DNA of 64,000 nucleotides from Candidatus Woesearchaeota archaeon (GTDB lineage Archaea > Nanobdellota > Nanobdellia > Woesearchaeales > DSVV01): NCBI GenBank assembly GCA_016214075.1, contig JACRPI010000013.1, positions 5,418 to 69,417 of the forward strand, written 5' to 3'. The notes beneath the pieces were generated by a model. That model made no database searches. It worked only from the letters and a program-made list of their open reading frames with translations, and was not told the origin of the DNA. This document shows positions 6,243 through 56,571 of this stretch, piece by piece. Both the position numbers and the translations under genes were made by a program. Each line of letters begins with the position of its first letter. The stretch's first letter is position 1.

Positions 6243-6827
6243 TTATTCACTCACATACCCATACCCTTCATAATAACTTTCATCAACTAAACGAATGTCA
6301 AAATCTTTTTCTGCGACAACAACATTCCACGAATCACAGCCGTATTTCTTTCCCCAGGAAATTTCTTTAGCAGGATCATAGTCATAATCATCGCAGGTAA
6401 TAGTAACAAGGTGACATTCCCATTCTGTTTCGCAGGTATATTCAAAATCATAACATGCTTCAAAGCCATAGTCTGAACAATATTCCTCAATACGATCTTC
6501 TTCAGATTCCGCGAATGTCTGATCATCATCGCTAGATGCAATATCACGCGCTTCGTCATATTCCGCTTCAAAAGTCTTTAACTCATTATATTCCTCAAAG
6601 ATCGCCTGCTTTTCTTCGTCAGTTAAACCATAATCTGTGCTTTCGTATTGTGCGCCTTCATAGCCTTTCACCACATGCTCAATTTCATACGAAGTATAAG
6701 TTCCTTCAGAAGGATACGTATATGCAATTTCTTGAGAAGTCTCAGTACCATCCATAAACAAGAGTACAGTAAGTGCAAAGAATGCGAGTACTCCAATGCC
6801 GAAAATAAATTGTAGTGTTTTTTTCAT
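6243..6827 (-). CDS. Secreted/membrane-anchored acidic Cys-containing protein (hypothetical)
   Basis: Start moved to the internal MKKTLQFIFGIGVLAFFALTVLLF (signal peptide/TM). The mature part is highly acidic with several Cys. Confidence 0.45.
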   Translation of the reverse strand: MKKTLQFIFGIGVLAFFALTVLLFMDGTETSQEIAYTYPSEGTYTSYEIEHVVKGYEGAQYESTDYGLTDEEKQAIFEEYNELKTFEAEYDEARDIASSDDDQTFAESEEDRIEEYCSDYGFEACYDFEYTCETEWECHLVTITCDDYDYDPAKEISWGKKYGCDSWNVVVAEKDFDIRLVDESYYEGYGYVSE

Positions 6828-7098
6828 TTTTTCCTTCTTCTCTCTTTTTTTCAATAGACAAACACATTCCACAAATCGCCTTGCAAGTCCTTGAACACAA
6901 TTCATCCTTTTATTATTTTATTAAATAAAAATAATACTGAATATGATCAAGCGACTCTAGTACGCGGTAAATGGAACTATACGACAATAAAAAGAAAGGA
7001 GCCAGCATTCCAAAGGAATGCCCCCAACCTTTCCAAAACACCTAAGAAACCCGCTTATATTTAAAGGTTTCGCTATTTTATCACTATTGAGTGGTTAA

Positions 7099-7701
7099 TT
7101 AATGAAGAGAAAAGACTTTCCCCATCAATCTGCCTGTGCCATCTCTGTATGTCTCAACATGGAAGAGCTCGCTATGAGCTGCAACTCCATCACTTTGCAT
7201 AAGAAGCATATATGTTCCTTGCCTTGTGTGCTGTCTCATAAATCGCGCGACTGCAAGCTCATTATCTCCTCCATTAAAGACCGTGTCAATTATGGAAGGG
7301 CGTAATCGAAGTTGAACATACGTTCTCATGTCAAGGAAATCTCCATACGCAAGAATAGGATATGGTGATTCGTTCACAACAGGTAAAAGTCCTTCTTCTC
7401 GAAGTTTTCCAATTCGTTTTTCAGCAAGTGCATGAATGCGTCTGTCTCCTTCTACGGAGTACGTTCGCATATTATATGCTGCGCCGAGTGCTGCGACACG
7501 GCCATCGCCGCCTCCTGCGTCAAGAAACACATCCCCATACTGTAAAAATCCTTCTTCTGATAAGACATGGAAAAGATCCTTCAAATAATCAATTCTCGTT
7601 GGTCGATAGCAGCCAATCGAAGTTGCTCTGTGCCGTCTTTCTTCATCGGAAAATCTATTATAAAATCGAACAATGTCATCGATACGTCGTTGATCTATCA
7701 T
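7099..7701 (-). CDS. Hypothetical protein with a Rossmann/SAM-MTase-like glycine motif
   Basis: VFLDAGGGDGRVAALGA resembles SAM-binding motif I. Confidence 0.35.
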   Translation of the reverse strand: MIDQRRIDDIVRFYNRFSDEERRHRATSIGCYRPTRIDYLKDLFHVLSEEGFLQYGDVFLDAGGGDGRVAALGAAYNMRTYSVEGDRRIHALAEKRIGKLREEGLLPVVNESPYPILAYGDFLDMRTYVQLRLRPSIIDTVFNGGDNELAVARFMRQHTRQGTYMLLMQSDGVAAHSELFHVETYRDGTGRLMGKVFSLH

Positions 7702-7734
7702 AGAAGAAAGAATCGTATTTGAAAATATAAAGGT

Positions 7735-12906: not shown

Positions 12907-12980
12907 TGGGGCTACCCAGATTTGAACTGGGGTCTTCCGGCCCCAAACCGGAAAGGATAGCCAAACTACCCCATAGCCCC
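12907..12980 (-). tRNA. tRNA-Pro (anticodon UGG), no encoded CCA
   Basis: Manually folded. 7-bp acceptor stem GGGGCUA/UAGCCCC, T-arm CCCAG-UUCAAAU-CUGGG, anticodon arm UCCGG-UUUGGGG-CCGGA, discriminator A. Confidence 0.7.
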
Positions 12981-14461: not shown

Positions 14462-15541
14462 GTGATGGAATTTCTTGTAAAAGACGCGTTAGGACAGCAG
14501 TCCGACATGACGAAAGGTTTTGCTGGAGCGGCAGTTGGTCATGCGATGATTAAAGTCATTGGTTGTGGAGGAGCAGGCAACAATATGGTAAGCTGGCTCT
14601 ACAAAAAAGGAATCAAAGGAGCAGAAATTTTTGCGTGCAACACAGACACGCAGCATTTGGAAATTACTCATGCTGATAAAAAATTCTTGATGGGAAAAGA
14701 AGTAACGCGCGGTCTTGGCTGCGGTGGCTTTCCGCAGAAAGGAGCGGAATCTGCGCAGGAATCTATTCAGGAAATTAAAGACGCGGTCAAAGGAGCGGAC
14801 ATGGTGTTTGTGTGCGCGGGAATGGGCGGAGGAACAGGAACAGGTTCAGCGCCAGTCATTGCGCGGGCGGCAAAAGATGTTGGCTCCATCGTCATCGGCA
14901 CAGTAACAATGCCATTCAAAATCGAGCGAGCGCGAGTGGATAAAGCGGAATTCGGATTGCAGCAGCTTCGCGAAGTTTCTGACACAGTTATTGTGATTGA
15001 CAACAATCGACTTGTTCAGATTGCGGGAAACTTGCCAGTACAACAAGCGTTTGCGGTCGCGAACGAATTAATCGCGACAATGATTAAAGGAATTGTTGAA
15101 ACAATTTCAGTTCCATCATTAGTCAATCTTGACTTTGCGGACGTCAAAGCAATTATGACCAATGGCGGCGTCGCGGCGATTGGCGTTGGTTCTTCTGATA
15201 CAAACAGTAGAGTGGAAGAAGCGGTCAAAGGCGCATTAAGCAATCCATTGCTTGAAATCAGCTACGAAGGAGCGACAGGCGCGTTAATTCACGTGCATGG
15301 TGGTCCAGACATGACGCTTGAAGAAGTCGAGCGCATTGGTGAGCTCGTCACAGAAAGCATGGATGAAGACGCGAACTGTATCTGGGGAGCACGAGTCACA
15401 GAAGAAATGAAAGGCAAGATTACAGTCATGACTATTATGACTGGCGTCAAGTCTCCATGGATTCTTGGAAAACAAGATGCGAGATCAAAAGTCAAAGAAC
15501 AGAAATTAAAAAGCGATGAACTCGGCATCCGATTCATTTAG
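14462..15541 (+). CDS. ftsZ: Cell division GTPase FtsZ
   Basis: GCGGAGNNMV and the tubulin signature GGGTGTGSAPVIA are present. Confidence 0.9.
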   Translation: MMEFLVKDALGQQSDMTKGFAGAAVGHAMIKVIGCGGAGNNMVSWLYKKGIKGAEIFACNTDTQHLEITHADKKFLMGKEVTRGLGCGGFPQKGAESAQESIQEIKDAVKGADMVFVCAGMGGGTGTGSAPVIARAAKDVGSIVIGTVTMPFKIERARVDKAEFGLQQLREVSDTVIVIDNNRLVQIAGNLPVQQAFAVANELIATMIKGIVETISVPSLVNLDFADVKAIMTNGGVAAIGVGSSDTNSRVEEAVKGALSNPLLEISYEGATGALIHVHGGPDMTLEEVERIGELVTESMDEDANCIWGARVTEEMKGKITVMTIMTGVKSPWILGKQDARSKVKEQKLKSDELGIRFI

Positions 15542-15643
15542 TTTTTTTAATTTTTTATTTTTTCATATTCACAAAGTTCACAAGTATCATTCATTTCATA
15601 TTTGAAAAATATAAATAATTTAAACTAAAATTTAAATAAAATA

Positions 15644-15695
15644 AAACACGCACCAAGAAAAGACCTATTACACAATTTAACCTTTTATTGAAAAG
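15644..15695 (+). promoter_or_regulatory. Conserved promoter-like element (copy A): AAACACGCACCAAGAAAAGACCTATTACACAATTTAACCTTTTATTGAAAAG
   Basis: Near-identical ~50-bp elements at 25774-25826 and 56153-56203. All are in + orientation, 60-95 bp upstream of + strand start codons, and end in a TATA-like TTTATT. Confidence 0.55.
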
Positions 15696-15762
15696 TAAAT
15701 TATTTAACAAATAAAAATCAGCGATGAAGCCAATAAAGTGATAAAATCAAAACGGTGATCTC

Positions 15763-16092
15763 ATGGCAGTAACCTATCCGTGCAAACGATGTAAGGCGCA
15801 AGTTGCGTTCAAGGATGTCCATTATTCGAATAATGGAAAAGACATGTTGTGTACGATGTGTTATGAAGTGACTATCAAAAAGCAGACAGTCAAAGAAAGG
15901 CCAGTCGAAGTGCAGAAAACTATTTCTGGGAAGAATATGAAAGAAAAATATCTCTGTGTCAAGTGCAGATATAATTTCACCTATCAACCATCAGAAGCAG
16001 CGCTGCGCTGTCCACTTTGCGGAAACGCAGAAGTGCTCAAGGATGATTATAACGCGGATAAACTGTTGAAAGAAGCGGTTGATGTACGGTAG
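15763..16092 (+). CDS. Zinc-ribbon protein (four CxxC pairs), hypothetical
   Basis: CKRCK, CTMCY, CVKCR and CPLCG pairs are present. Preceded by a conserved promoter-like element. Confidence 0.45.
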   Translation: MAVTYPCKRCKAQVAFKDVHYSNNGKDMLCTMCYEVTIKKQTVKERPVEVQKTISGKNMKEKYLCVKCRYNFTYQPSEAALRCPLCGNAEVLKDDYNADKLLKEAVDVR

Positions 16093-19636: not shown

Positions 19637-20107
19637 ATGGGCAAACCTGGAACAAGCTGTGAGATGTGTGGAAAGCAAGATTTTCTTATGAAAGCGCTTG
19701 TTGAAGGAGTAGAGATGAGCGTTTGCAAAGGATGCGCGTCATTTGGAAGAATCCTTCAAGCGCCAAGAATGCCAAGCAAAACACAAGGTCATTCATTTTC
19801 AAGACCAAAAGAGCCACAAATTGTTGAGTCTATTGTAGAAGAGTATGCGCAAAAAATCAAGCAGGCGCGAGAGAAACGAAATCTCAATCAGGAAGAGTTC
19901 GCGAAGATGGTCAATGAGCATGCGTCATTGTTGAAACATATTGAAGCGGGAAAGCAGCGACCGACGTTTGATCTCGCGAAAAAGTTAGAAAAAATGCTGA
20001 ACATCGTTCTCATAGAAAAATCAACAACAGAAGACGAGCCAAAAGAAGAAAAGCGAAGTCCAAAAGGGCCATTAACAATTGGCGATATATTGAGTATGAA
20101 AAAATAA
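19637..20107 (+). CDS. Archaeal multiprotein-bridging-factor-1-like protein (aMBF1): zinc ribbon plus XRE-type HTH
   Basis: CEMCGK...CKGCASFG zinc ribbon is followed by the HTH QEEFAKMVNEHASLLKHIEAGKQRPTFDLAKKLEKML. Start trimmed from 19445 to MGKPG at 19637. Confidence 0.65.
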   Translation: MGKPGTSCEMCGKQDFLMKALVEGVEMSVCKGCASFGRILQAPRMPSKTQGHSFSRPKEPQIVESIVEEYAQKIKQAREKRNLNQEEFAKMVNEHASLLKHIEAGKQRPTFDLAKKLEKMLNIVLIEKSTTEDEPKEEKRSPKGPLTIGDILSMKK

Positions 20108-20904: not shown

Positions 20905-21045
20905 AAGAAGCTGAGTGAAGTTGCAGTATTAATAGTTATGGAAAAATGGGTTAAATCCTTAATTTTTCCGATTCAATCAATAAAAAAGTATGGGGATTCT
21001 CAAGGACAGTAAGGCGATTCTTTTTTGTTGTAAGGCAACTAACAC

Positions 21046-21130
21046 GCACTTTACTTATATTACTATTTGCCCAGCAAAACTCAAAATGTCAGGGGGACCC
21101 ATTGCCGCGGCAATGGGGTTTTATTGAAGT
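21046..21130 (+). repeat. About 85-bp repeated element (copy 1) with the AACACGCAC box and a 20-bp perfect palindrome CCCATTGCCGCGGCAATGGG
   Basis: It shares CAAAATGTCAGGGGGACCCATTGCCGCRGCAATGGGGTT plus flanks with the copy at 35653-35736. Confidence 0.6.
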
Positions 21131-25080: not shown

Positions 25081-25739
25081 TTCTCCACAAACACAAACTT
25101 CTTCTGCTCAAAATCAGCGACTAATTTCTTTGGCGCTTTTCCTAAATAATTCACGCGAGCGACAATTTCTTGTCCGAGATAACAGCCTTTGGTAAATGAA
25201 ACAAAAGAAGGGGAAACATTCAAAATCATGTCGTTGGTGTAATCAACTCCGTGCAAAGGAATGTTATTTTCCAGTCGAAAGAGAAGAGAATCCTCATCAG
25301 AAATAGTGCTCTCGATTTTCTTTTCTGTCAAAACAAGTTGTCCTTTTGTTTGAGAAATACAATATTCATTATTCCTTATGTCATTTTTCGCTGTTTGATA
25401 TGCGGTATCCAAATCAAAGTACACAGAATATTTTGTCGCGTGTATTTTTGTGCCAGAGAGTTGAAGATATGGTTTAAGATGCGTGTAGAGCTGTTGCAAA
25501 CAAGACGATGAAACAACAAGAAGTAAGGAATCTTCACTAATCCTCGCTTGGTCAACAGTCGCGATAATCTTACCAAACTTGTCAAGAAACGCATTCTTTG
25601 AAGCGTCAAGGGTGTTTGACGTAATGCCGTTGAGCAGTTTGTCTGGATTATTTGTCACAAGCAAAACACTTTTGTCCATGAATTTGTAGATCCGCATAAG
25701 GGAAGAAAGAGTAAATCCGTTTATATATTTCACTAACAA
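25077..25739 (-). CDS. YgfZ/GcvT-like folate-binding protein
   Basis: C-terminal KGCYLGQEIVARV matches the YgfZ KGCYxGQE signature. Confidence 0.65.
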   Translation of the reverse strand: MLVKYINGFTLSSLMRIYKFMDKSVLLVTNNPDKLLNGITSNTLDASKNAFLDKFGKIIATVDQARISEDSLLLVVSSSCLQQLYTHLKPYLQLSGTKIHATKYSVYFDLDTAYQTAKNDIRNNEYCISQTKGQLVLTEKKIESTISDEDSLLFRLENNIPLHGVDYTNDMILNVSPSFVSFTKGCYLGQEIVARVNYLGKAPKKLVADFEQKKFVFVEN

Positions 25740-25773
25740 AATACCCCTCGGGAAAAATATACACTTACAAAAA

Positions 25774-25826
25774 AAACACGTACCAAGAAAAGACCTAAAT
25801 CACAATTCATCCCTTTATTAAAAAAT
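25774..25826 (+). promoter_or_regulatory. Conserved promoter-like element (copy B)
   Basis: AAACACGTACCAAGAAAAGACCTAAATCACAATTCATCCCTTTATTAAAAAAT, upstream of the ORF at 25912. Confidence 0.55.
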
Positions 25827-25911
25827 AAATAACACAGAGATAAATTGTGATTAAGCAGCGAAGCGATTAGAATAAACCTTTATAAGACGAGAAGCATTAG
25901 TTTCAGGTAGA

Positions 25912-26922
25912 ATGACGCAAATAGAGCAGATATATGTCGAACAAAAACCAGAAGACATTCTTTTTCAGCTTGAAACAAATCTGCGTGATGCGAGAGAAAT
26001 AAGACCCGCGCAAGAAGCAGCGAAACAATGGAAAGAGCGAGTAACAAATAGAGGTTTCTCCTCACTTATAGCAATAATAAACAGAGAAATGAGTCATCTC
26101 CTCTCAGAAGAATTGACAAGTGATGATTTCAGAGATGCAGAAGTATATCCTGGCGAAGAAAAAATGATGGAGCATGAGCTCAAGCATGGGCTTCCTGCGC
26201 TTTCCTTTGGAGTAGCCATTCCTTCTAATGCATGGCCATCAATCCAGCGAAAGTTTAGAATGCGAGAGACAAGTGAAGGGATTAGTTTAAGCGACTATGG
26301 CTTCTCTGCGCAATCATTAGGATTAGATGTAACTGGACTTACGATGCATAGAGCAAGTGAAGAAAAAGAGTACGAAGAATTTCAGCAATTATATGAAGAT
26401 CACGCAGCGTATTCAAAATCATTTGGAGACCTTGCGCTTCTAGCACTTGAAAAAATACGCTCTCCTTGGGAGTTAAGTATGGCGCTTCTTTGTCGAACAA
26501 AGAGGGATCTTTGTGCAGGAAGATATGAAGAAGGAAGAGAAAAGAAAGCAGAGGCATTGATAAGAAGCCTCGATGCGTATGGGAAAGCATACGAGGATGA
26601 AGTGAGACGCCACGTTGATGATGTTCGAAGGGTAATGGCATACCAAGCGATTTATGCAGAAGTAGTTTCTGAAATAGTTCCAGACATATATCTTGCAATT
26701 GAAGCAACCTATACGCTTGAAGAACAAATAGGCGCGGGGATTGTAACGCCGCTGTTATTTGCACTTGGAACAACAGAAGTAAGTAGCAAGAGAACACATT
26801 TTCGTTCTCCATTAAAAGGCATTATCAAAGCGAGAGAATATATTGATTCAGGGGAAATAAGAGTAGAAGATATTACACAAGTTCTCGGAAGAAAAGGATA
26901 CAAACAGATAGCAGTTGCCTGA
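25912..26922 (+). CDS. Hypothetical protein
   Basis: 336-aa ORF preceded by a conserved promoter-like element. Confidence 0.45.
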   Translation: MTQIEQIYVEQKPEDILFQLETNLRDAREIRPAQEAAKQWKERVTNRGFSSLIAIINREMSHLLSEELTSDDFRDAEVYPGEEKMMEHELKHGLPALSFGVAIPSNAWPSIQRKFRMRETSEGISLSDYGFSAQSLGLDVTGLTMHRASEEKEYEEFQQLYEDHAAYSKSFGDLALLALEKIRSPWELSMALLCRTKRDLCAGRYEEGREKKAEALIRSLDAYGKAYEDEVRRHVDDVRRVMAYQAIYAEVVSEIVPDIYLAIEATYTLEEQIGAGIVTPLLFALGTTEVSSKRTHFRSPLKGIIKAREYIDSGEIRVEDITQVLGRKGYKQIAVA

Positions 26923-35615: not shown

Positions 35616-35652
35616 GGGTTCTTTCTTAATCACAGTAAATACTTTATAAGAA

Positions 35653-35736
35653 ACACGCACCAATTTCTCGTCTATTCGCTCAGCACCCCAAAATGTCAGG
35701 GGGACCCATTGCCGCAGCAATGGGGTTATTGTGAGT
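35653..35736 (+). repeat. About 85-bp repeated element (copy 2) with the AACACGCACC box and palindrome CCCATTGCCGCAGCAATGGG
   Basis: See copy 1. Located between the response-regulator gene and the 3' end of parA. Confidence 0.6.
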
Positions 35737-36539: not shown

Positions 36540-36700
36540 ACATCACCCTCTTTTTGAAATGTTCTATATCCTGTATCACTGTCATCCGTATGGATGTGAG
36601 ATGTATGGAATTTGCAACACGGGCAAAGTATATAAAGTTTTTTGTTTGACGACGGGGAATTTTCTCCAAAAAATTTATATTGTTCAAGAGAATAATAAAC

Positions 36701-36813
36701 GGTGAGGCGGGGACTTGAACCCCGATACGCCCGCTAAGACGAAATGGCTCTCTGAAGCCCATCTTATCGATGGGTTTCATCAGGCCATCGCAATACCTTT
36801 ATGCGACCTCACC
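36701..36813 (-). tRNA. Intron-containing tRNA (about 113 nt), identity uncertain. A canonical bulge-helix-bulge model gives a 28-nt intron (36750-36777) at 37/38 and anticodon GAU (Ile). A long variable region, G73 and G30:C40 would instead fit a class-II (Ser-like) tRNA.
   Basis: Manually folded. Acceptor stem GGUGAGG/CCUCACC, perfect T-arm CGGGG-UUCAAGU-CCCCG, D-arm with GG. The putative BHB has central helix CUGA/UCAG flanked by 3-nt bulges UGA and AGA. 19 nt lie between the anticodon stem and T-stem. Confidence 0.6.
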
Positions 36814-38745: not shown

Positions 38746-39528
38746 TTACAAACATCCCCTATATTTTGCGACAGTGCGACGCGCAACAGATAGCTGGTAG
38801 AGTTCGTGAAGCGTTTCTGCGAGTTCTCTATCAGAAACAAGCCATTTTTTCCCATCAAATAAAGTGGGATCTCTTTGCAATTGTTGCAAAGCATACGTCC
38901 CTTGAAGAGCGAGAAGTTTTGCTCCAGGAATAAGCTCAGTAACAAAGCGATTTTTTTCGTATATATGGACAGTAAGAGTTCTGGTAAGACGGGATATGGC
39001 TGACTCGTCGCATCCAATGGAGTTTGCGACATCTTGCTGCGTGCGATGCTGCATGTTAAGAGGATTTTCTGTTTGAAGATATCTGTATTGAATCGGGCAG
39101 AGATATGCAATAATTTCTTTTTGTTTTTCCACAACCCAAGCTCTGTTTTTTTGAAGCGTAGTGTAAAACTCTCCATTTGCCCGCAGCGCTGCAAATCGCT
39201 CACTAAGACGTTGTTCCCAAAAGGGATTATACTCTACTTCCCATGTATATCGGCCATTCCAAGTATCAGTAAGGTGAATAGAAGCATAAAACTGCGGTAT
39301 TTCAAGAAGGTCTTGTCGTGAAATGCTCCTTGTTACTTTGTCCAGAGCTCTATTTACTGCGTAAAAAAACGTCGTCTTTGTCTCTTTTTCAGGAAGATTT
39401 TCTCTAAGAAACAGTTCTAATTCTAACGGAGAGAGTTCCATCATTACAGCTGCCAGAGGGTCGACACCAGAACGCACTTTGAATTCAAGTCTTAGATGTA
39501 AATCATCACTCATAATCATGCACTTCAT
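38746..39528 (-). CDS. Protein with a C-terminal sigma-54 (RpoN) DNA-binding-domain-like region; the N-terminal ~130 aa are unknown
   Basis: C-terminus LSVARRTVAKYRG matches the RpoN box ARRTVAKYRE. Upstream KKWLVSDRELAETLHEL resembles sigma-54 kPLSDqeIaelL. The HTH TQQDVANSIGCDESAISRLTRTL resembles the sigma-54 HTH (dvAeelg.heSTvSRa). It overlaps the upstream gene by 4 nt. Confidence 0.6.
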   Translation of the reverse strand: MKCMIMSDDLHLRLEFKVRSGVDPLAAVMMELSPLELELFLRENLPEKETKTTFFYAVNRALDKVTRSISRQDLLEIPQFYASIHLTDTWNGRYTWEVEYNPFWEQRLSERFAALRANGEFYTTLQKNRAWVVEKQKEIIAYLCPIQYRYLQTENPLNMQHRTQQDVANSIGCDESAISRLTRTLTVHIYEKNRFVTELIPGAKLLALQGTYALQQLQRDPTLFDGKKWLVSDRELAETLHELYQLSVARRTVAKYRGCL

Positions 39529-50383: not shown

Positions 50384-51295
50384 CTACTTCTTCATCTCTT
50401 TCTTCGACTTCCAGAAAAAGAATCCTACTGCCGCGAAGGTAATTGTTGGACTAGCCCACTGTGGAATGTGAAATCCAAAACTATCCAACAACATGAATGA
50501 ACCTAAAAACAAAATAGAGTACATCGCGCCATTTTTCAAGTATTTATATTTCTTGATGCGTTCAACATTGCTCACGGTGACTTGTCGTAAAACAATCGCG
50601 CCAAGACCATTCCCCAATAAAATCAGCGGAACAGAAAGCGTGAACGCGAACGCGCCTAAAACACCATCAATCGAGAATGTCGCGTCAATAACTTCAAGAT
50701 AGAATATCTTGCTGAGATCTGTTTTTTTCTTGTCCAAAAGATGTTTTTCCTGCTCAGCCGCGTTTTCCTTAAATCCATGCGTAATGAAAAAGGCGGTAGA
50801 ACCAACAACTGCGCTGAACGCCATGAATGGATTTTCCTTGAGCGCGAACCAGACAATGAGGGAAAGTAAAACAGAAACAACTGCGAAAAACCAGACTCCT
50901 TTGGATTGAATATATTCTTCACCATATAATCCATAGTGTTTTGGCTCTAAAAATATCCAGTGGAAAAAGAGGAAGATGAGGAATACGCCGCCACCAACTA
51001 ACAGAAGAGGAGCGGATGTTTCTACAGCTTCAATAACAGAAGGATCATTGCTGAATGTCGCGAACAATGCTTCAATCGGACCAAGTGTTGGGTTCACTGC
51101 CCAGACAATGCCCCAAGGCAATAATCCACGGACAACAAAGACTGCGAAAAGAATCCCCCAGAGCAAGAACCATCGCCGAGCTTTTTCTCCCATGGTGGAG
51201 AGAACTTCCGCGTTGATGATCGCGTTATCGATGCTGCTGATAGCTTCAAATAAACAAAGACCCGCAACGATGAGAATGATGCTAAATATCTCCAT
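50384..51295 (-). CDS. DUF475/TerC-like integral membrane protein
   Basis: SSIDNAIINA (the SIDNA motif) and multiple TM helices. Confidence 0.6.
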   Translation of the reverse strand: MEIFSIILIVAGLCLFEAISSIDNAIINAEVLSTMGEKARRWFLLWGILFAVFVVRGLLPWGIVWAVNPTLGPIEALFATFSNDPSVIEAVETSAPLLLVGGGVFLIFLFFHWIFLEPKHYGLYGEEYIQSKGVWFFAVVSVLLSLIVWFALKENPFMAFSAVVGSTAFFITHGFKENAAEQEKHLLDKKKTDLSKIFYLEVIDATFSIDGVLGAFAFTLSVPLILLGNGLGAIVLRQVTVSNVERIKKYKYLKNGAMYSILFLGSFMLLDSFGFHIPQWASPTITFAAVGFFFWKSKKEMKK

Positions 51296-56042: not shown

Positions 56043-56152
56043 TCTCTGGAATAATGCGTTTTGGTATAAATTGCTTGTTGTTTTTTTTGACATACATAAG
56101 ATTTCAGCGTATAAAACGCATGCTAACAAAATTATAAACGCATAGCAACCTA

Positions 56153-56203
56153 AAACACGCACCAGCAAAACCAAATACACAATTCATCCTTTTATTATTC
56201 ATT
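56153..56203 (+). promoter_or_regulatory. Conserved promoter-like element (copy C)
   Basis: AAACACGCACCAGCAAAACCAAATACACAATTCATCCTTTTATTATTCATT, upstream of the YbjQ-family gene at 56257. Confidence 0.55.
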
Positions 56204-56256: not shown

Positions 56257-56571
56257 ATGGAATACACTACAACAGAACAAATAGCAGGAAAGAAGATTAC
56301 AAAAACACTCGGTTTAGTCGCGGGAAACACTGTCCGAGCGCGCTGGGTTGGCGCAGACTTCATTGCAGGTCTTCGCAATCTCATTGGCGGAGAAGTCGTG
56401 GAGTATACACGTTTAATGGCAGATACAAGAGAACAATCTGTTCAGCGTATGCTTGAAGAAGCAAAGAAGCGTGGCGCGAACGCGGTTGTTTCTGTTCGCT
56501 TTCAAACATCAACAATCGCGCAAGCAGGAGAAGAGATTCTCGTGTATGGGACTGCTGTTGTGGTGAAGTGA
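56257..56571 (+). CDS. YbjQ/UPF0145 (DUF74) family protein
   Basis: 104-aa protein with the UPF0145 pattern GADFIAGLRNLIGGEV...ANAVV. Confidence 0.6.
   Translation: MEYTTTEQIAGKKITKTLGLVAGNTVRARWVGADFIAGLRNLIGGEVVEYTRLMADTREQSVQRMLEEAKKRGANAVVSVRFQTSTIAQAGEEILVYGTAVVVK

What the first reader, a model, noticed from the sequence alone, without database searches (positions are those of the whole stretch)
15644..15695. Three-copy conserved ~50-bp upstream element defining a putative small regulon
Near-identical elements occur in the same orientation 60-95 bp upstream of three unrelated + strand genes: a zinc-ribbon protein at 15763, a hypothetical protein at 25912 and a YbjQ-family gene at 56257. 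The consensus is AAACACGCACCAAGAAAAGACCTAnnTCACAATTCATCCTTTTATT and the other copies are at 25774-25826 and 56153-56203. The 3' end looks like an archaeal TATA box. The conserved 5' AACACGCACC box and the ACAATTCATCC segment are longer than a BRE/TATA needs. This suggests a shared regulator binding site or a transcribed leader.
Basis: seen in the sequence. Interest (0 to 1): 0.6.

Follow-up and report, generated by a model that had tools for sequence, protein, structure and literature searches.

The report
Conserved portable upstream element, Woesearchaeota
A ~50-base non-coding sequence really is repeated (four times, not three) in front of unrelated genes of this uncultivated Woesearchaeota archaeon and is kept by selection in related genomes; it behaves like a portable promoter or leader module rather than a proven regulon, and what reads it is still unknown.

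Summary
The window, from a Candidatus Woesearchaeota MAG, holds four + strand copies, not three: 6860-6914, 15643-15689, 25773-25819 and 56152-56196 (nhmmer E 1e-10 to 1e-15). The unit is larger than reported. It has a G-poor three-block box 1 ending in an invariant TTTATT, then an AT-rich spacer that is often palindromic, then usually a short box 2 (AAGCGA).

At the 25.8-kb locus the element sits at the orthologous site in two related genomes. It is 83-87% identical there, against 56-65% at third codon positions, so it is under selection. It is not tied to fixed genes. The ftsZ/zinc-ribbon copy is missing in three relatives. In one relative a copy lies inside the thermosome 5' UTR, downstream of that gene's conserved promoter, while at least eight other relatives have an empty site.

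TTTATT scores as a plausible but below-median TATA box. Two of the three reported genes also have their own canonical proximal promoters. The 5' box AAACACGCACC is shared with a second, hairpin-terminated non-coding family (20992-21125, 35651-35730).

Best reading (about 0.4): a portable, regulator-bound promoter module. A transcribed RNA leader is nearly as likely. There is no Rfam match, no viral match and no nearby transposase.

The parts
15643..15689 (+). F1 copy c1, box 1: AAAACACGCACCAAGAAAAGACCTATTACACAATTTAACCTTTTATT. It lies in a 221-nt spacer between ftsZ (stop at 15541) and the Zn-ribbon gene (ATG at 15763).
   Evidence: This is the 'TTTAACC' sub-variant, shared with L001. Relatives L009 and L012 have only 8-37 nt between the two genes and no element.
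15720..15724 (+). Box 2 (AGCGA) of c1, 30 nt after TTTATT. An SD-like GGTGATC follows at 15753-15759.
25773..25819 (+). F1 copy c2, box 1. It lies between divergent genes (- strand ATG at 25697, + strand ATG at 25912).
   Evidence: The orthologous copies in L003 and L004/L002/L005 are 83-87% identical.
25795..25855 (+). Inverted repeat / hairpin of c2. Arms are 25795-25820 and 25830-25855, 26 nt each and 81% complementary. TTTATT lies in the left arm.
   Evidence: The fold of 25773-25911 has z = -4.0.
25853..25861 (+). Box 2 of c2 (AAGCAGCGA).
   Evidence: It is conserved in L003 and decayed in L004.
25874..25886 (+). Canonical proximal promoter of the 336-aa gene (AAACCTTTATAAG), 33 nt before the ATG. 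It is not part of the element but is relevant to the interpretation.
   Evidence: It is identical in all three genomes.
56152..56196 (+). F1 copy c3, box 1, 2 nt shorter in the linker between blocks I and II. It lies between uppP/bacA (- strand, ATG at 56093) and ybjQ (+ strand, ATG at 56257).
   Evidence: There is no clear box 2. ybjQ has its own ATATATAAAC box about 30 nt before the ATG.
6860..6914 (+). The 3' half CACAATTCATCCTTTTATT is exact. The 5' half has diverged and is about 10 nt longer.
   Evidence: No + strand gene follows it; the neighbours are - strand genes at 6243-6827 and 7099-7701.
6867..6976 (+). Long imperfect hairpin of copy A. It pairs most of box 1 with the sequence downstream of the AT-rich centre. 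Box 2 (AAGCGA) is at 6949-6954.
   Evidence: MFE -25.9 kcal/mol, z = -4.0, 0 of 200 shuffles as stable.
20992..21125 (+). F2 element, the second family. It carries the same 5' box (AACACGCAC at 21041-21049), here flanked by GTAAGG/CTTTAC. It ends in the GACCCATTGC-CGCG-GCAATGGGG hairpin followed by TTTTATTG.
   Evidence: It is conserved in L003 2918-3048 and L004 4700-4805.
35651..35730 (+). F2 element, second copy. It starts with AAACACGCACC and ends in the same hairpin. It lies 35 nt after the response-regulator gene.
   Evidence: It is conserved in L004 at about 19830-19910.

Best explanation
The element (called F1 here) is a lineage-specific, selectively maintained non-coding module of about 90-110 bp found in a small clade of Woesearchaeota. 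It consists of three parts:
- Box 1, about 46 nt, G-poor, made of three conserved blocks: AAACACGCACCA, AAAGACCTA and CACAATTYAWCC. The third block abuts an invariant TTTATT.
- An AT-rich, often palindromic spacer of 29-37 nt.
- Usually a short box 2 (AAGCGA).

The most likely function is a portable promoter module. In this reading TTTATT, preceded by ..ACC or ..TCC, is a BRE/TATA-like core firing towards the downstream gene. Blocks I-III, at fixed spacing upstream, are the recognition surface for a dedicated DNA-binding regulator or TFB variant. Box 2 falls in the first 5-15 transcribed nucleotides.

Copies have been gained at new loci within the clade, namely the thermosome 5' UTR in one genome and the ftsZ/Zn-ribbon spacer in this one. 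There they would add or replace a promoter, giving a leadered, SD-dependent mRNA. At other loci (c2, c3) the module would act as a distal second promoter or regulatory site upstream of a canonical leaderless promoter.

Shown: the repeat itself, its architecture, its orientation, purifying selection, gain or loss between genomes, its TATA-likeness, and the absence of any known RNA family or transposase. Inferred: that it initiates transcription, that a regulator binds it, and that its genes are co-regulated.
For: 1. The family is real. There are four window copies at E 1e-10 to 1e-15. Further copies occur in L001, L003 and L004/L002/L005.

2. It is under selection. At the c2 locus the 46-nt core is 83-87% identical among three genomes, while the adjacent gene is 56-65% identical at third codon positions and 74-84% at first and second positions. 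All copies are 83-89% alike whether they are paralogous, orthologous or in different genomes. That pattern indicates constraint towards a consensus, not a recent burst of copying.

3. The 3' end is promoter-like. TTTATT is invariant in all copies and keeps a fixed distance to block III. It scores 6.1-8.2 bits on a matrix built from 28 TATA boxes of this window (training median 9.5), in the top 0.07-0.22% of window positions. One training promoter, for the gene starting at 51295, also uses TTTATTAA. The c1/L001 variant TAACC-TTTTATT resembles the canonical AAACC-TTTATAA.

4. Orientation and distance are consistent. In all four independent loci with a downstream gene (c1, c2, c3, L001 thermosome) the element is co-oriented with that gene and ends 61-93 nt before the ATG. 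No T-run of 5 or more lies between TTTATT and the ATG, so a transcript would read into the gene.

5. Some genes appear to need it. In L009 and L012 the Zn-ribbon gene follows ftsZ by 8-37 nt, which looks like an operon. In the window a 221-nt spacer starts with T7/T6/T6 runs, then carries the element and a GGTGATC Shine-Dalgarno, with no good proximal TATA.

6. It is portable. In L001 the module is an insertion of about 115 nt between the thermosome TSS region and the GAGG Shine-Dalgarno. L013 and L016-L022 have the empty site.

7. It meets the operational definition of putative mobile promoters: at least 80% identity over about 50 nt upstream of unrelated genes (PMC3575422).
Against: - No transcription start data exist. 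TATA-likeness in AT-rich DNA is weak evidence, and the scores are below the median of real promoters.
- The c2 and c3 genes have their own canonical proximal TATA, and in c2 that TATA is conserved. The element is therefore not needed as their promoter. The L004 orthologue has no Shine-Dalgarno to serve a leadered mRNA.
- In L001 the element lies downstream of an intact, conserved thermosome promoter, so there it is certainly transcribed as part of the 5' UTR.
- In c1, L003 and L004 a TATA-like box lies 34-36 nt upstream of box 1, which would start a transcript about 5 nt before it.
- The core is strongly G-poor, with 2-4 G in about 40 nt against 20% genome-wide. Several copies also carry hairpins. 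Both features fit RNA better than a DNA operator.
- The 5' box also occurs in the F2 elements, where at least one copy (20992-21125) looks like an RNA with the box in a hairpin loop.
- Copy A has no gene to drive.
- No dyad symmetry typical of archaeal transcription-factor sites is present in box 1.
Confidence: 0.4

Rival explanations
1. The element is a transcribed RNA element, either a cis-acting 5' leader or a small RNA. In this reading box 1 is an unstructured, CA-rich, G-poor single-stranded segment followed by a hairpin. It would be recognised at the RNA level by a protein, an RNase or a complementary RNA, and would control stability or translation of the downstream mRNA. Box a (AAACACGCACC) would be a recognition or 'seed' module shared with the F2 RNAs.
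For: - In L001 the element sits inside the thermosome 5' UTR, about 28 nt downstream of the expected start from the conserved promoter.
- TATA-like boxes lie 34-36 nt upstream of box 1 in c1, L003 and L004.
- The core is G-poor.
- Box 1 is unpaired in all seven minimum-free-energy folds, and the hairpins of c2 and copy A have z = -4.0.
- The arm sequences differ between copies yet remain complementary: TCACAATT/AATTGTGA in c2, TACACAATT/AATTAGTGTA in L001, and 27-nt arms in L014.
- The same 11-mer heads the F2 elements, which end in a covarying hairpin plus a U-run and lie in 3' UTR-like or stand-alone positions.
Against: - No promoter sits at a conserved distance upstream. The window's c2 copy has about 20 extra nt relative to L003 and L004, and A and L001 have no such box.
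- The hairpin is not significant in c1, c3, L001 or L004 (z -1.2 to +0.5), and its register varies.
- The left arm is conserved in sequence far beyond what pairing needs, while the right arm decays in L004.
- In c2 and c3 the element lies upstream of the gene's canonical leaderless promoter, so it would not be part of the main mRNA.
- There is no Rfam family match, even at lenient thresholds.
- No complementary target was found in about 316 kb of sampled sequence.
Confidence: 0.33
2. The element is a relic of a small non-autonomous mobile element, MITE-like or a palindromic repeat. In this reading it spread by transposition or recombination and is tolerated in 5' intergenic DNA only in the orientation that lacks oligo-T terminators. 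It would have little or no function of its own.
For: - Presence/absence polymorphism occurs at the thermosome 5' UTR and at the ftsZ/Zn-ribbon spacer.
- The L001 insertion is bounded by TCGCT...AGCGA and flanked by imperfect A/C-rich direct repeats of about 9 bp that resemble the empty site.
- Copy A folds as a palindrome of about 110 nt, and c2 and L014 have 26-27-nt inverted arms.
- The minus strand carries T4-T8 runs, which would explain the orientation bias without invoking a function.
Against: - The core is 83-87% conserved at an orthologous site where synonymous positions are saturated.
- Identity is star-like rather than higher within a genome.
- Copy number is low. A strict pattern found one match in each of the genome and metagenome collections.
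- No terminal inverted repeat or target-site duplication is consistent across copies.
- No transposase or integrase domain is present in the window ORFs or in the gene tables of L003-L022.
- There are no viral matches.
Confidence: 0.15
3. The element is a DNA site for a chromosome-level protein, such as an origin-recognition, segregation or recombination factor, and has nothing to do with the neighbouring genes.
For: All six box-a-bearing elements in the window (four F1 and two F2) are on the + strand, and cumulative GC skew rises across most of the window.
Against: - Copies are 9-30 kb apart and are not clustered around an AT-rich unwinding region or an orc1/cdc6 gene.
- There is no resemblance to ORB dyads (comparison from the author's own knowledge).
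- Six of six on one strand gives only p of about 0.03.
- The copies are always close to and co-oriented with gene starts.
Confidence: 0.05

Closest known systems
Putative mobile promoters (PMPs; Matus-Garcia, Nijveen & van Passel 2012; commentary PMC3575422)
   Same: Both are highly similar stretches of about 50 nt (at least 80% identity) located upstream of unrelated genes within one genome. They also recur upstream of different genes in related genomes, have no associated transposase and match no Rfam family.
   Different: According to the commentary read here, PMPs were catalogued by similarity only, and mostly as pairs. That commentary discusses bacterial examples; it reports no Archaea-Bacteria sharing and describes no archaeal family. 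This element has an archaeal TATA-like end, a defined three-block architecture, and evidence of purifying selection at an orthologous site.
Archaeal activator-dependent promoters with upstream sites (for example EarA sites upstream of the BRE in the Methanococcus maripaludis fla promoter, PMC5512572, seen only as title and abstract; Ptr2 and ARA-box promoters from the author's own knowledge)
   Same: In both, conserved sequence blocks lie at a fixed distance upstream of a BRE/TATA, are longer than the core promoter, and are shared by several promoters.
   Different: No dyad or short repeated half-site is evident here. The conserved stretch is about 40 nt and continuous. No regulator is known. 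One copy lies downstream of another promoter, and two lie upstream of canonical promoters.
MITEs or repeat elements with outward-firing promoters (Correia, ERIC and REPIN elements, as cited in PMC3575422)
   Same: These are also small non-coding modules with inverted-repeat or hairpin potential. They show insertion polymorphism next to genes and may donate a promoter.
   Different: This family has a low copy number and no consistent terminal inverted repeats or target-site duplications. No cognate transposase was seen. Its sequence is conserved across species at a syntenic site.
Cis-regulatory leader RNAs and sibling small RNAs that share a seed
   Same: These also occur as several copies per genome in sense orientation upstream of unrelated genes. 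They have a single-stranded conserved segment followed by a hairpin. Here the 11-nt box is shared with a second structured family (F2).
   Different: There is no Rfam match and no robust covariation-supported structure common to all copies. No conserved upstream promoter was found, and no target has been identified.

Membership tests
Archaeal BRE/TATA core promoter | An A/T-rich TATA box matching the genome's own promoter consensus, with a BRE-like sequence directly upstream | tested here: met
   On a matrix built from 28 window promoters, the F1 TTTATT sites score 6.1-8.2 bits (training range -0.7 to 15.8, median 9.5), in the top 0.07-0.22% of window positions. The ..ACC/..TCC before the T-run resembles the canonical AAACC.
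Archaeal BRE/TATA core promoter | A transcription start about 25-30 nt downstream of the TATA box | not testable with these tools
   No RNA 5'-end data are available for this uncultivated organism.
Putative mobile promoters (PMP) | At least 80% identity over at least 50 nt within about -150 to -50 of the start codons of non-homologous genes in one genome | tested here: met
   Identity is 44/53 for c1-c2, 41/47 for c1-c3 and 43/50 for c2-c3. The elements span -119 to -61 relative to the ATGs. The downstream proteins are unrelated. The length requirement is only just met.
Transcription-factor regulon (shared operator) | The motif is retained upstream of orthologous genes in related genomes | tested here: inconclusive
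   It is retained at the c2 orthologue in two genomes. It is absent from the third orthologous set of contigs (L006-L008), which has no intergenic spacer at that site. It is also absent at the c1 orthologue in L009, L012 and L010. It is present at the thermosome only in L001. Orthologues of c3 and A could not be fetched.
Transcription-factor regulon (shared operator) | Dyad or direct-repeat half-sites at fixed spacing, as is typical of archaeal regulators | tested here: not met
   Box 1 has no internal dyad. The inverted repeats involve downstream sequence at variable spacing of 12-35 nt.
MITE / non-autonomous transposon | Terminal inverted repeats and target-site duplications shared by all copies | tested here: inconclusive
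   L001 has TCGCT...AGCGA ends and imperfect flanking repeats of about 9 bp. Copy A is a long palindrome. c1, c2 and c3 show no common termini.
MITE / non-autonomous transposon | Many copies per genome and a cognate transposase somewhere in the genome | tested here: not met
   One strict-pattern match was found in the GTDB representative genomes and one in the JGI metagenomes. Density is about 1 copy per 15-40 kb in sampled DNA. No transposase domains occur in the window or the loci. Whole genomes were not available.
Known RNA families (Rfam 15), including riboswitches and small RNAs | A covariance-model match at or near the gathering score | tested here: not met
   No hit was found at the gathering threshold. 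At E of 5-10 or less, only sub-threshold miRNA-like hairpin noise appears.
IS200/IS605-derived PATE or REP/RAYT elements | A conserved subterminal hairpin with a short 5' guide or tetranucleotide, plus a Y1 transposase (TnpA/RAYT) in the genome | tested here: inconclusive
   The layout of a single-stranded box followed by a hairpin is loosely similar. However, the hairpin sequence is not conserved between copies, and no Y1_Tnp domain was seen in about 300 kb of sampled DNA.
Integron attC sites | An imperfect palindrome with R''/R' (..AAC/GTT..) cores, arranged in arrays after promoterless cassettes | tested here: not met
   Copies are 9-30 kb apart among housekeeping genes (ftsZ, truD, purine and arginine biosynthesis genes). 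No AAC/GTT cores are present.

The most novel reading that the evidence does not exclude
Box a (AAACACGCACC, sometimes extended to GCAACYTAAAACACGCACC) may be a shared single-stranded recognition module of two families of non-coding RNAs or leaders in this Woesearchaeota clade. F1 lies in front of genes, including the thermosome gene. F2 is a hairpin-terminated element of about 60-135 nt found after genes or standing alone. Together they would form a lineage-specific post-transcriptional network, built on an RNA-binding protein, an RNase or a sibling small RNA, in DPANN archaea. No regulatory RNA system has been characterised in that group, to the author's knowledge.
Probability: 0.25. Interest if true: 0.6.

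Novelty: new member of a known kind. Interest (0 to 1): 0.4.

Why it matters
DPANN and Woesearchaeota genomes are known almost only from metagenomes, and their gene regulation is essentially uncharted. This element is a concrete, testable handle on it. It is a conserved, selected cis-element of about 50 nt that has been gained at new genes within a clade, including the thermosome gene, and it shares an 11-nt box with a second non-coding family.

If it is a promoter module, it would be a clear archaeal case of promoter propagation and regulon rewiring. If it acts at the RNA level, it would point to an unknown post-transcriptional system in reduced archaeal genomes.

The practical impact is modest until transcript data exist. 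The family is confined to a few closely related uncultivated genomes.

Tried and rejected
- Coding potential. A frame through c1 and c2 looks conserved, but it has a stop two codons upstream, no start codon, and a frameshift in c3. Rejected (reasoned from the sequences).
- tRNA, tmRNA or a known RNA family. ARAGORN and Rfam at the gathering threshold found nothing at the copies, and lenient Rfam scans covering them (whole window; copy c2 region) gave only noise.
- Viral or plasmid origin. Two viral-contig scans for F1 gave only chance hits lacking box a, and one scan for F2 gave nothing.
- Heat-shock or proteostasis regulon. The aim was to see whether the downstream proteins share a theme. The 336-aa protein has no Pfam or NCBIfam match. 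Its AlphaFold model is weak (pLDDT 67) and has no PDB fold match. The idea remains unsupported.
- Trans target. Searches for the complement of box a found only the elements themselves.
- Homology of the L014 thermosome-UTR insertion to F1. The result is marginal (local score 44 against 32 +/- 5 for shuffles; 8 of 300 shuffles reach it).
- Extending the window contig. Exact look-up of two edge proteins failed, probably because the called starts differ.
- Origin-recognition boxes, dif sites and attC sites were considered and rejected on copy spacing and sequence.

Full report
**Observation**

- c1 at 15643-15689
- c2 at 25773-25819
- c3 at 56152-56196

Each ends in TTTATT, which lies 74, 93 and 61 nt before the ATG of the downstream gene. 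Those genes encode a 109-aa zinc-ribbon protein, a 336-aa protein with no family match, and a YbjQ_1 protein.

The repeat is not a chance event. The 19-nt 3' half occurs four times with up to 3 mismatches, against 0.05 expected. An HMM built from the copies recovers them at E 1e-10 to 1e-15, and the next best hit is at E 0.3.

Its 3' half is exact. Its 5' half has diverged and is about 10 nt longer. It lies between two minus-strand genes, so no + strand gene follows it.

**Organism and gene context**

The 336-aa protein is identical to hypothetical protein HZC31_02640 of a Candidatus Woesearchaeota MAG, on a contig of 84,260 bp. The window encodes ordinary housekeeping functions: FtsZ, TruD, GlnRS/GluRS-type synthetase, purine and arginine biosynthesis enzymes, topoisomerase and UppP. 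No transposase or integrase domain was found.

Upstream regions of the window's genes were inspected. Most genes have a (A)AAC(C)TTTATA(A/T)A box starting about 27-33 nt before the ATG, so they are mostly leaderless. A minority have GGTGAT/GAGGT Shine-Dalgarno sequences instead.

**Anatomy of the element**

Seven distinct copies were aligned: four from the window plus L001, L003 and L004. The alignment shows the following:
- Box 1 has three conserved blocks: AAACACGCACCA, AAA(A)GACCTA and CACAATT(C/T)A(T/A)CC. Short variable linkers of almost fixed length separate them.
- An invariant TTTATT directly follows box 1.
- An AT-rich spacer of 29-37 nt comes next and often reads TTTATT..AATAAA.
- In A, c1, c2, L001 and L003 a short box 2, A(T/A)(C/T)AAGC(AGC)GA, follows the spacer. 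It also appears in a degenerate relative in L014.

A rough estimate from base frequencies puts the chance of AGCGA recurring in that position in four of five independent loci at about 1e-5, even after allowing for choosing the 5-mer post hoc.

The core is G-poor, with 2-4 G in about 40 nt against 20% genome-wide.

The 3' part of box 1 is complementary to the sequence just before box 2 in several copies:
- c2: 26-nt arms, 81% complementary
- L003: 21-nt arms
- L014: 27-nt arms
- Copy A folds into an imperfect hairpin of about 110 nt.

The folds of c2 and A have z = -4.0. Those of c1, c3, L001 and L004 are not significant, and the pairing register differs between copies.

**Comparative evidence**

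A strict two-part pattern found one match in the GTDB representative genomes and one in the JGI metagenomes.

The metagenome hit (L002, the same population as L004 and L005) is the orthologue of the c2 locus, and L003 is a second orthologue. L003 comes from MAG GCA_964385055.1, which is labelled Methanosarcinales but is syntenic with the window.

In the three-way alignment, the element and the proximal promoter AAACCTTTATAAG stand out from diverged flanks. The 46-nt core is 83-87% identical between genomes. The adjacent gene is 56-65% identical at third codon positions and 74-84% at first and second positions. The element is therefore under purifying selection.

All copies are 83-89% alike, whether they are paralogues, orthologues or non-orthologous copies in different genomes. 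This fits constraint towards a consensus better than recent copying.

A third set of orthologous contigs (L006-L008) lacks the intergenic spacer altogether.

**The element is not tied to particular genes**

In FtsZ-anchored loci of relatives with 80-88% FtsZ identity, the zinc-ribbon gene follows ftsZ by 8 nt (L009) or 37 nt (L012). In L010 it follows after an unrelated 200-nt spacer. None of these has the element. In the window, the 221-nt spacer opens with T7/T6/T6 runs, then carries the element, and ends in a GGTGATC Shine-Dalgarno.

The genome-collection hit (L001, the same MAG as L003) places a copy 63 nt before the thermosome ATG.

Thermosome upstream regions from ten loci were compared. 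They share a conserved promoter, ..AGTAGTAACAAAATTCTTGCACAACCTTTAAAAAAG, about 50 nt before the ATG, followed by a short leader with GAGG.
- L001 carries the element plus its AT-rich tail and AAGCGA as an insertion of about 115 nt. It sits between the expected transcription start and the GAGG.
- L013 has an empty site. It comes from the same metagenome assembly as L004, and so probably from a genome that has the c2 copy.
- L016-L022 also have the empty site.
- L014 carries a different insertion of about 150 nt at the same place, only marginally similar to F1. It has a CAATTCAT-containing hairpin and AAGCGA.

Copies have therefore been gained or lost at new loci within the clade. At least one copy is transcribed as part of a 5' UTR.

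**A second family shares the 5' box**

Searching for box a alone revealed that AAACACGCACC also heads another conserved non-coding element, called F2 here. Its layout is box a, about 13 nt, TATTCGCTCAGC, 10-35 nt, then ATGTCAGGGGGACCCATTGC-loop-GCAATGGGGTTTTATTG.

F2 copies occur at window 20992-21125 and 35651-35730, and in L003, L004 (two copies) and L001. RNAalifold supports a short helix plus a terminal hairpin. In L001 the hairpin stem differs in sequence (AATTTAC/GTAAATT) but still pairs, and a U-run follows.

In the 21-kb copy, box a sits between GTAAGG and CCTTAC. F2 has no Rfam match. All six box-a elements in the window are on the + strand.

**Interpretation**

The element is functional and modular. 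Two mechanisms remain close.

*Promoter module (preferred, about 0.4).*
- TTTATT is invariant and rigidly juxtaposed to block III.
- It scores within the range of real promoters of this genome.
- Every copy with a downstream gene is co-oriented with that gene at 61-93 nt, and no strong terminator lies in between.
- The two 'TTTAACC' copies (c1 and L001) precede genes that have Shine-Dalgarno sequences and lack a good proximal TATA.
- The c1 spacer separates the zinc-ribbon gene from ftsZ by terminator-like T-runs, so that gene needs a new promoter.
- Three sequence-conserved blocks with variable linkers look like a protein-recognition surface.
- The family fits the published operational definition of putative mobile promoters.

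*Transcribed leader or small RNA (about 0.33).*
- The L001 copy lies in the thermosome 5' UTR.
- c1, L003 and L004 have a TATA-like box 34-36 nt upstream of box 1.
- The core is G-poor and predicted to be unpaired, and a hairpin follows it.
- Box a recurs in F2, which looks like RNA.

Against the RNA reading, the upstream TATA spacing is not conserved even at the c2 locus. The hairpin is inconsistent between copies. In c2 and c3 the element lies upstream of the gene's canonical leaderless promoter.

*Other readings.* A purely selfish MITE-like repeat (about 0.15) explains the insertion polymorphism and the palindromes, and the minus-strand T-runs would account for the orientation bias. It does not explain the cross-species conservation, the low copy number or the missing transposase. 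A chromosome-level DNA site is unlikely (about 0.05).

**Verdict**

The 'small regulon' interpretation is only partly supported.

The element is a new member of a known kind: a conserved, duplicated upstream module of the putative-mobile-promoter type. It is unmatched in Rfam and in the viral collection, two targeted literature searches turned up nothing on it, and it is confined to a few related uncultivated Woesearchaeota.

Its mechanism needs 5'-end transcript data. The positions at which primary 5' ends would decide between the two leading models are given in the next-steps section.

Noticed in passing
window 20992-21125 and 35651-35730 (+); L003 2918-3048; L004 4700-4805 and about 19830-19910; L001 about 7640-7705: A second conserved non-coding family (F2) starts with the same AAACACGCACC box. 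It ends in a GGGGGACCC-hairpin-GGGGTTTT structure, and the stem in L001 covaries. It looks like a small RNA or a 3' UTR/terminator module and has no Rfam match.
   Followed up: partly
window 36700-36813 (-): An intron-containing tRNA scores 44.7 bits (gathering score 29). Only the lenient cmscan run reported it; the gathering-threshold run and ARAGORN both missed it. Conversely, the tRNA-Pro at 12907-12980 (-) was found by ARAGORN but not listed by cmscan.
   Followed up: no
window about 7056-7072 (- strand), with 6913-7041: A canonical-looking minus-strand promoter (AACCTTTAAATATAAG) has no annotated gene behind it. It could drive a 42-aa ORF (GTG at 7041, ending at 6913) or a small RNA containing a GCATTCC/GGAATGC hairpin. 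Either would end in the AT-rich tail of element copy A.
   Followed up: no
L001 5740-5800; L013, L014, L017 and L018 upstream of the thermosome ATG: Thermosome genes of related Woesearchaeota share a conserved block of about 40 nt upstream of their TATA (CCTCAAGTAGTAACAAAATTCTTGCACAACCTTTAAAAAAG). It is a candidate operator for a chaperone or heat-shock regulator.
   Followed up: partly
L001 and L003 (GCA_964385055.1, contigs CAYLMH010000005.1 and CAYLMH010000004.1): This MAG is titled 'uncultured Methanosarcinales archaeon'. Its loci are syntenic with the Woesearchaeota window (TruD, DEAD helicase, HTH_3, TFIIE-alpha, DUF1385 and so on) and it carries the same elements. The taxonomic label is probably wrong, or the bin is mixed.
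   Followed up: no
window 38746-39528 (-): A 260-aa archaeal protein matches the Sigma-54 DNA-binding domain (PF04552, E 5e-9, above the gathering score). It is a candidate DNA-binding regulator.
   Followed up: no
window 15541-15580: Three consecutive T-runs (T7, T6, T6) follow the ftsZ stop codon directly. They probably form a strong archaeal terminator that uncouples ftsZ from the zinc-ribbon gene. In relatives that gene follows ftsZ within 8-37 nt.
   Followed up: partly
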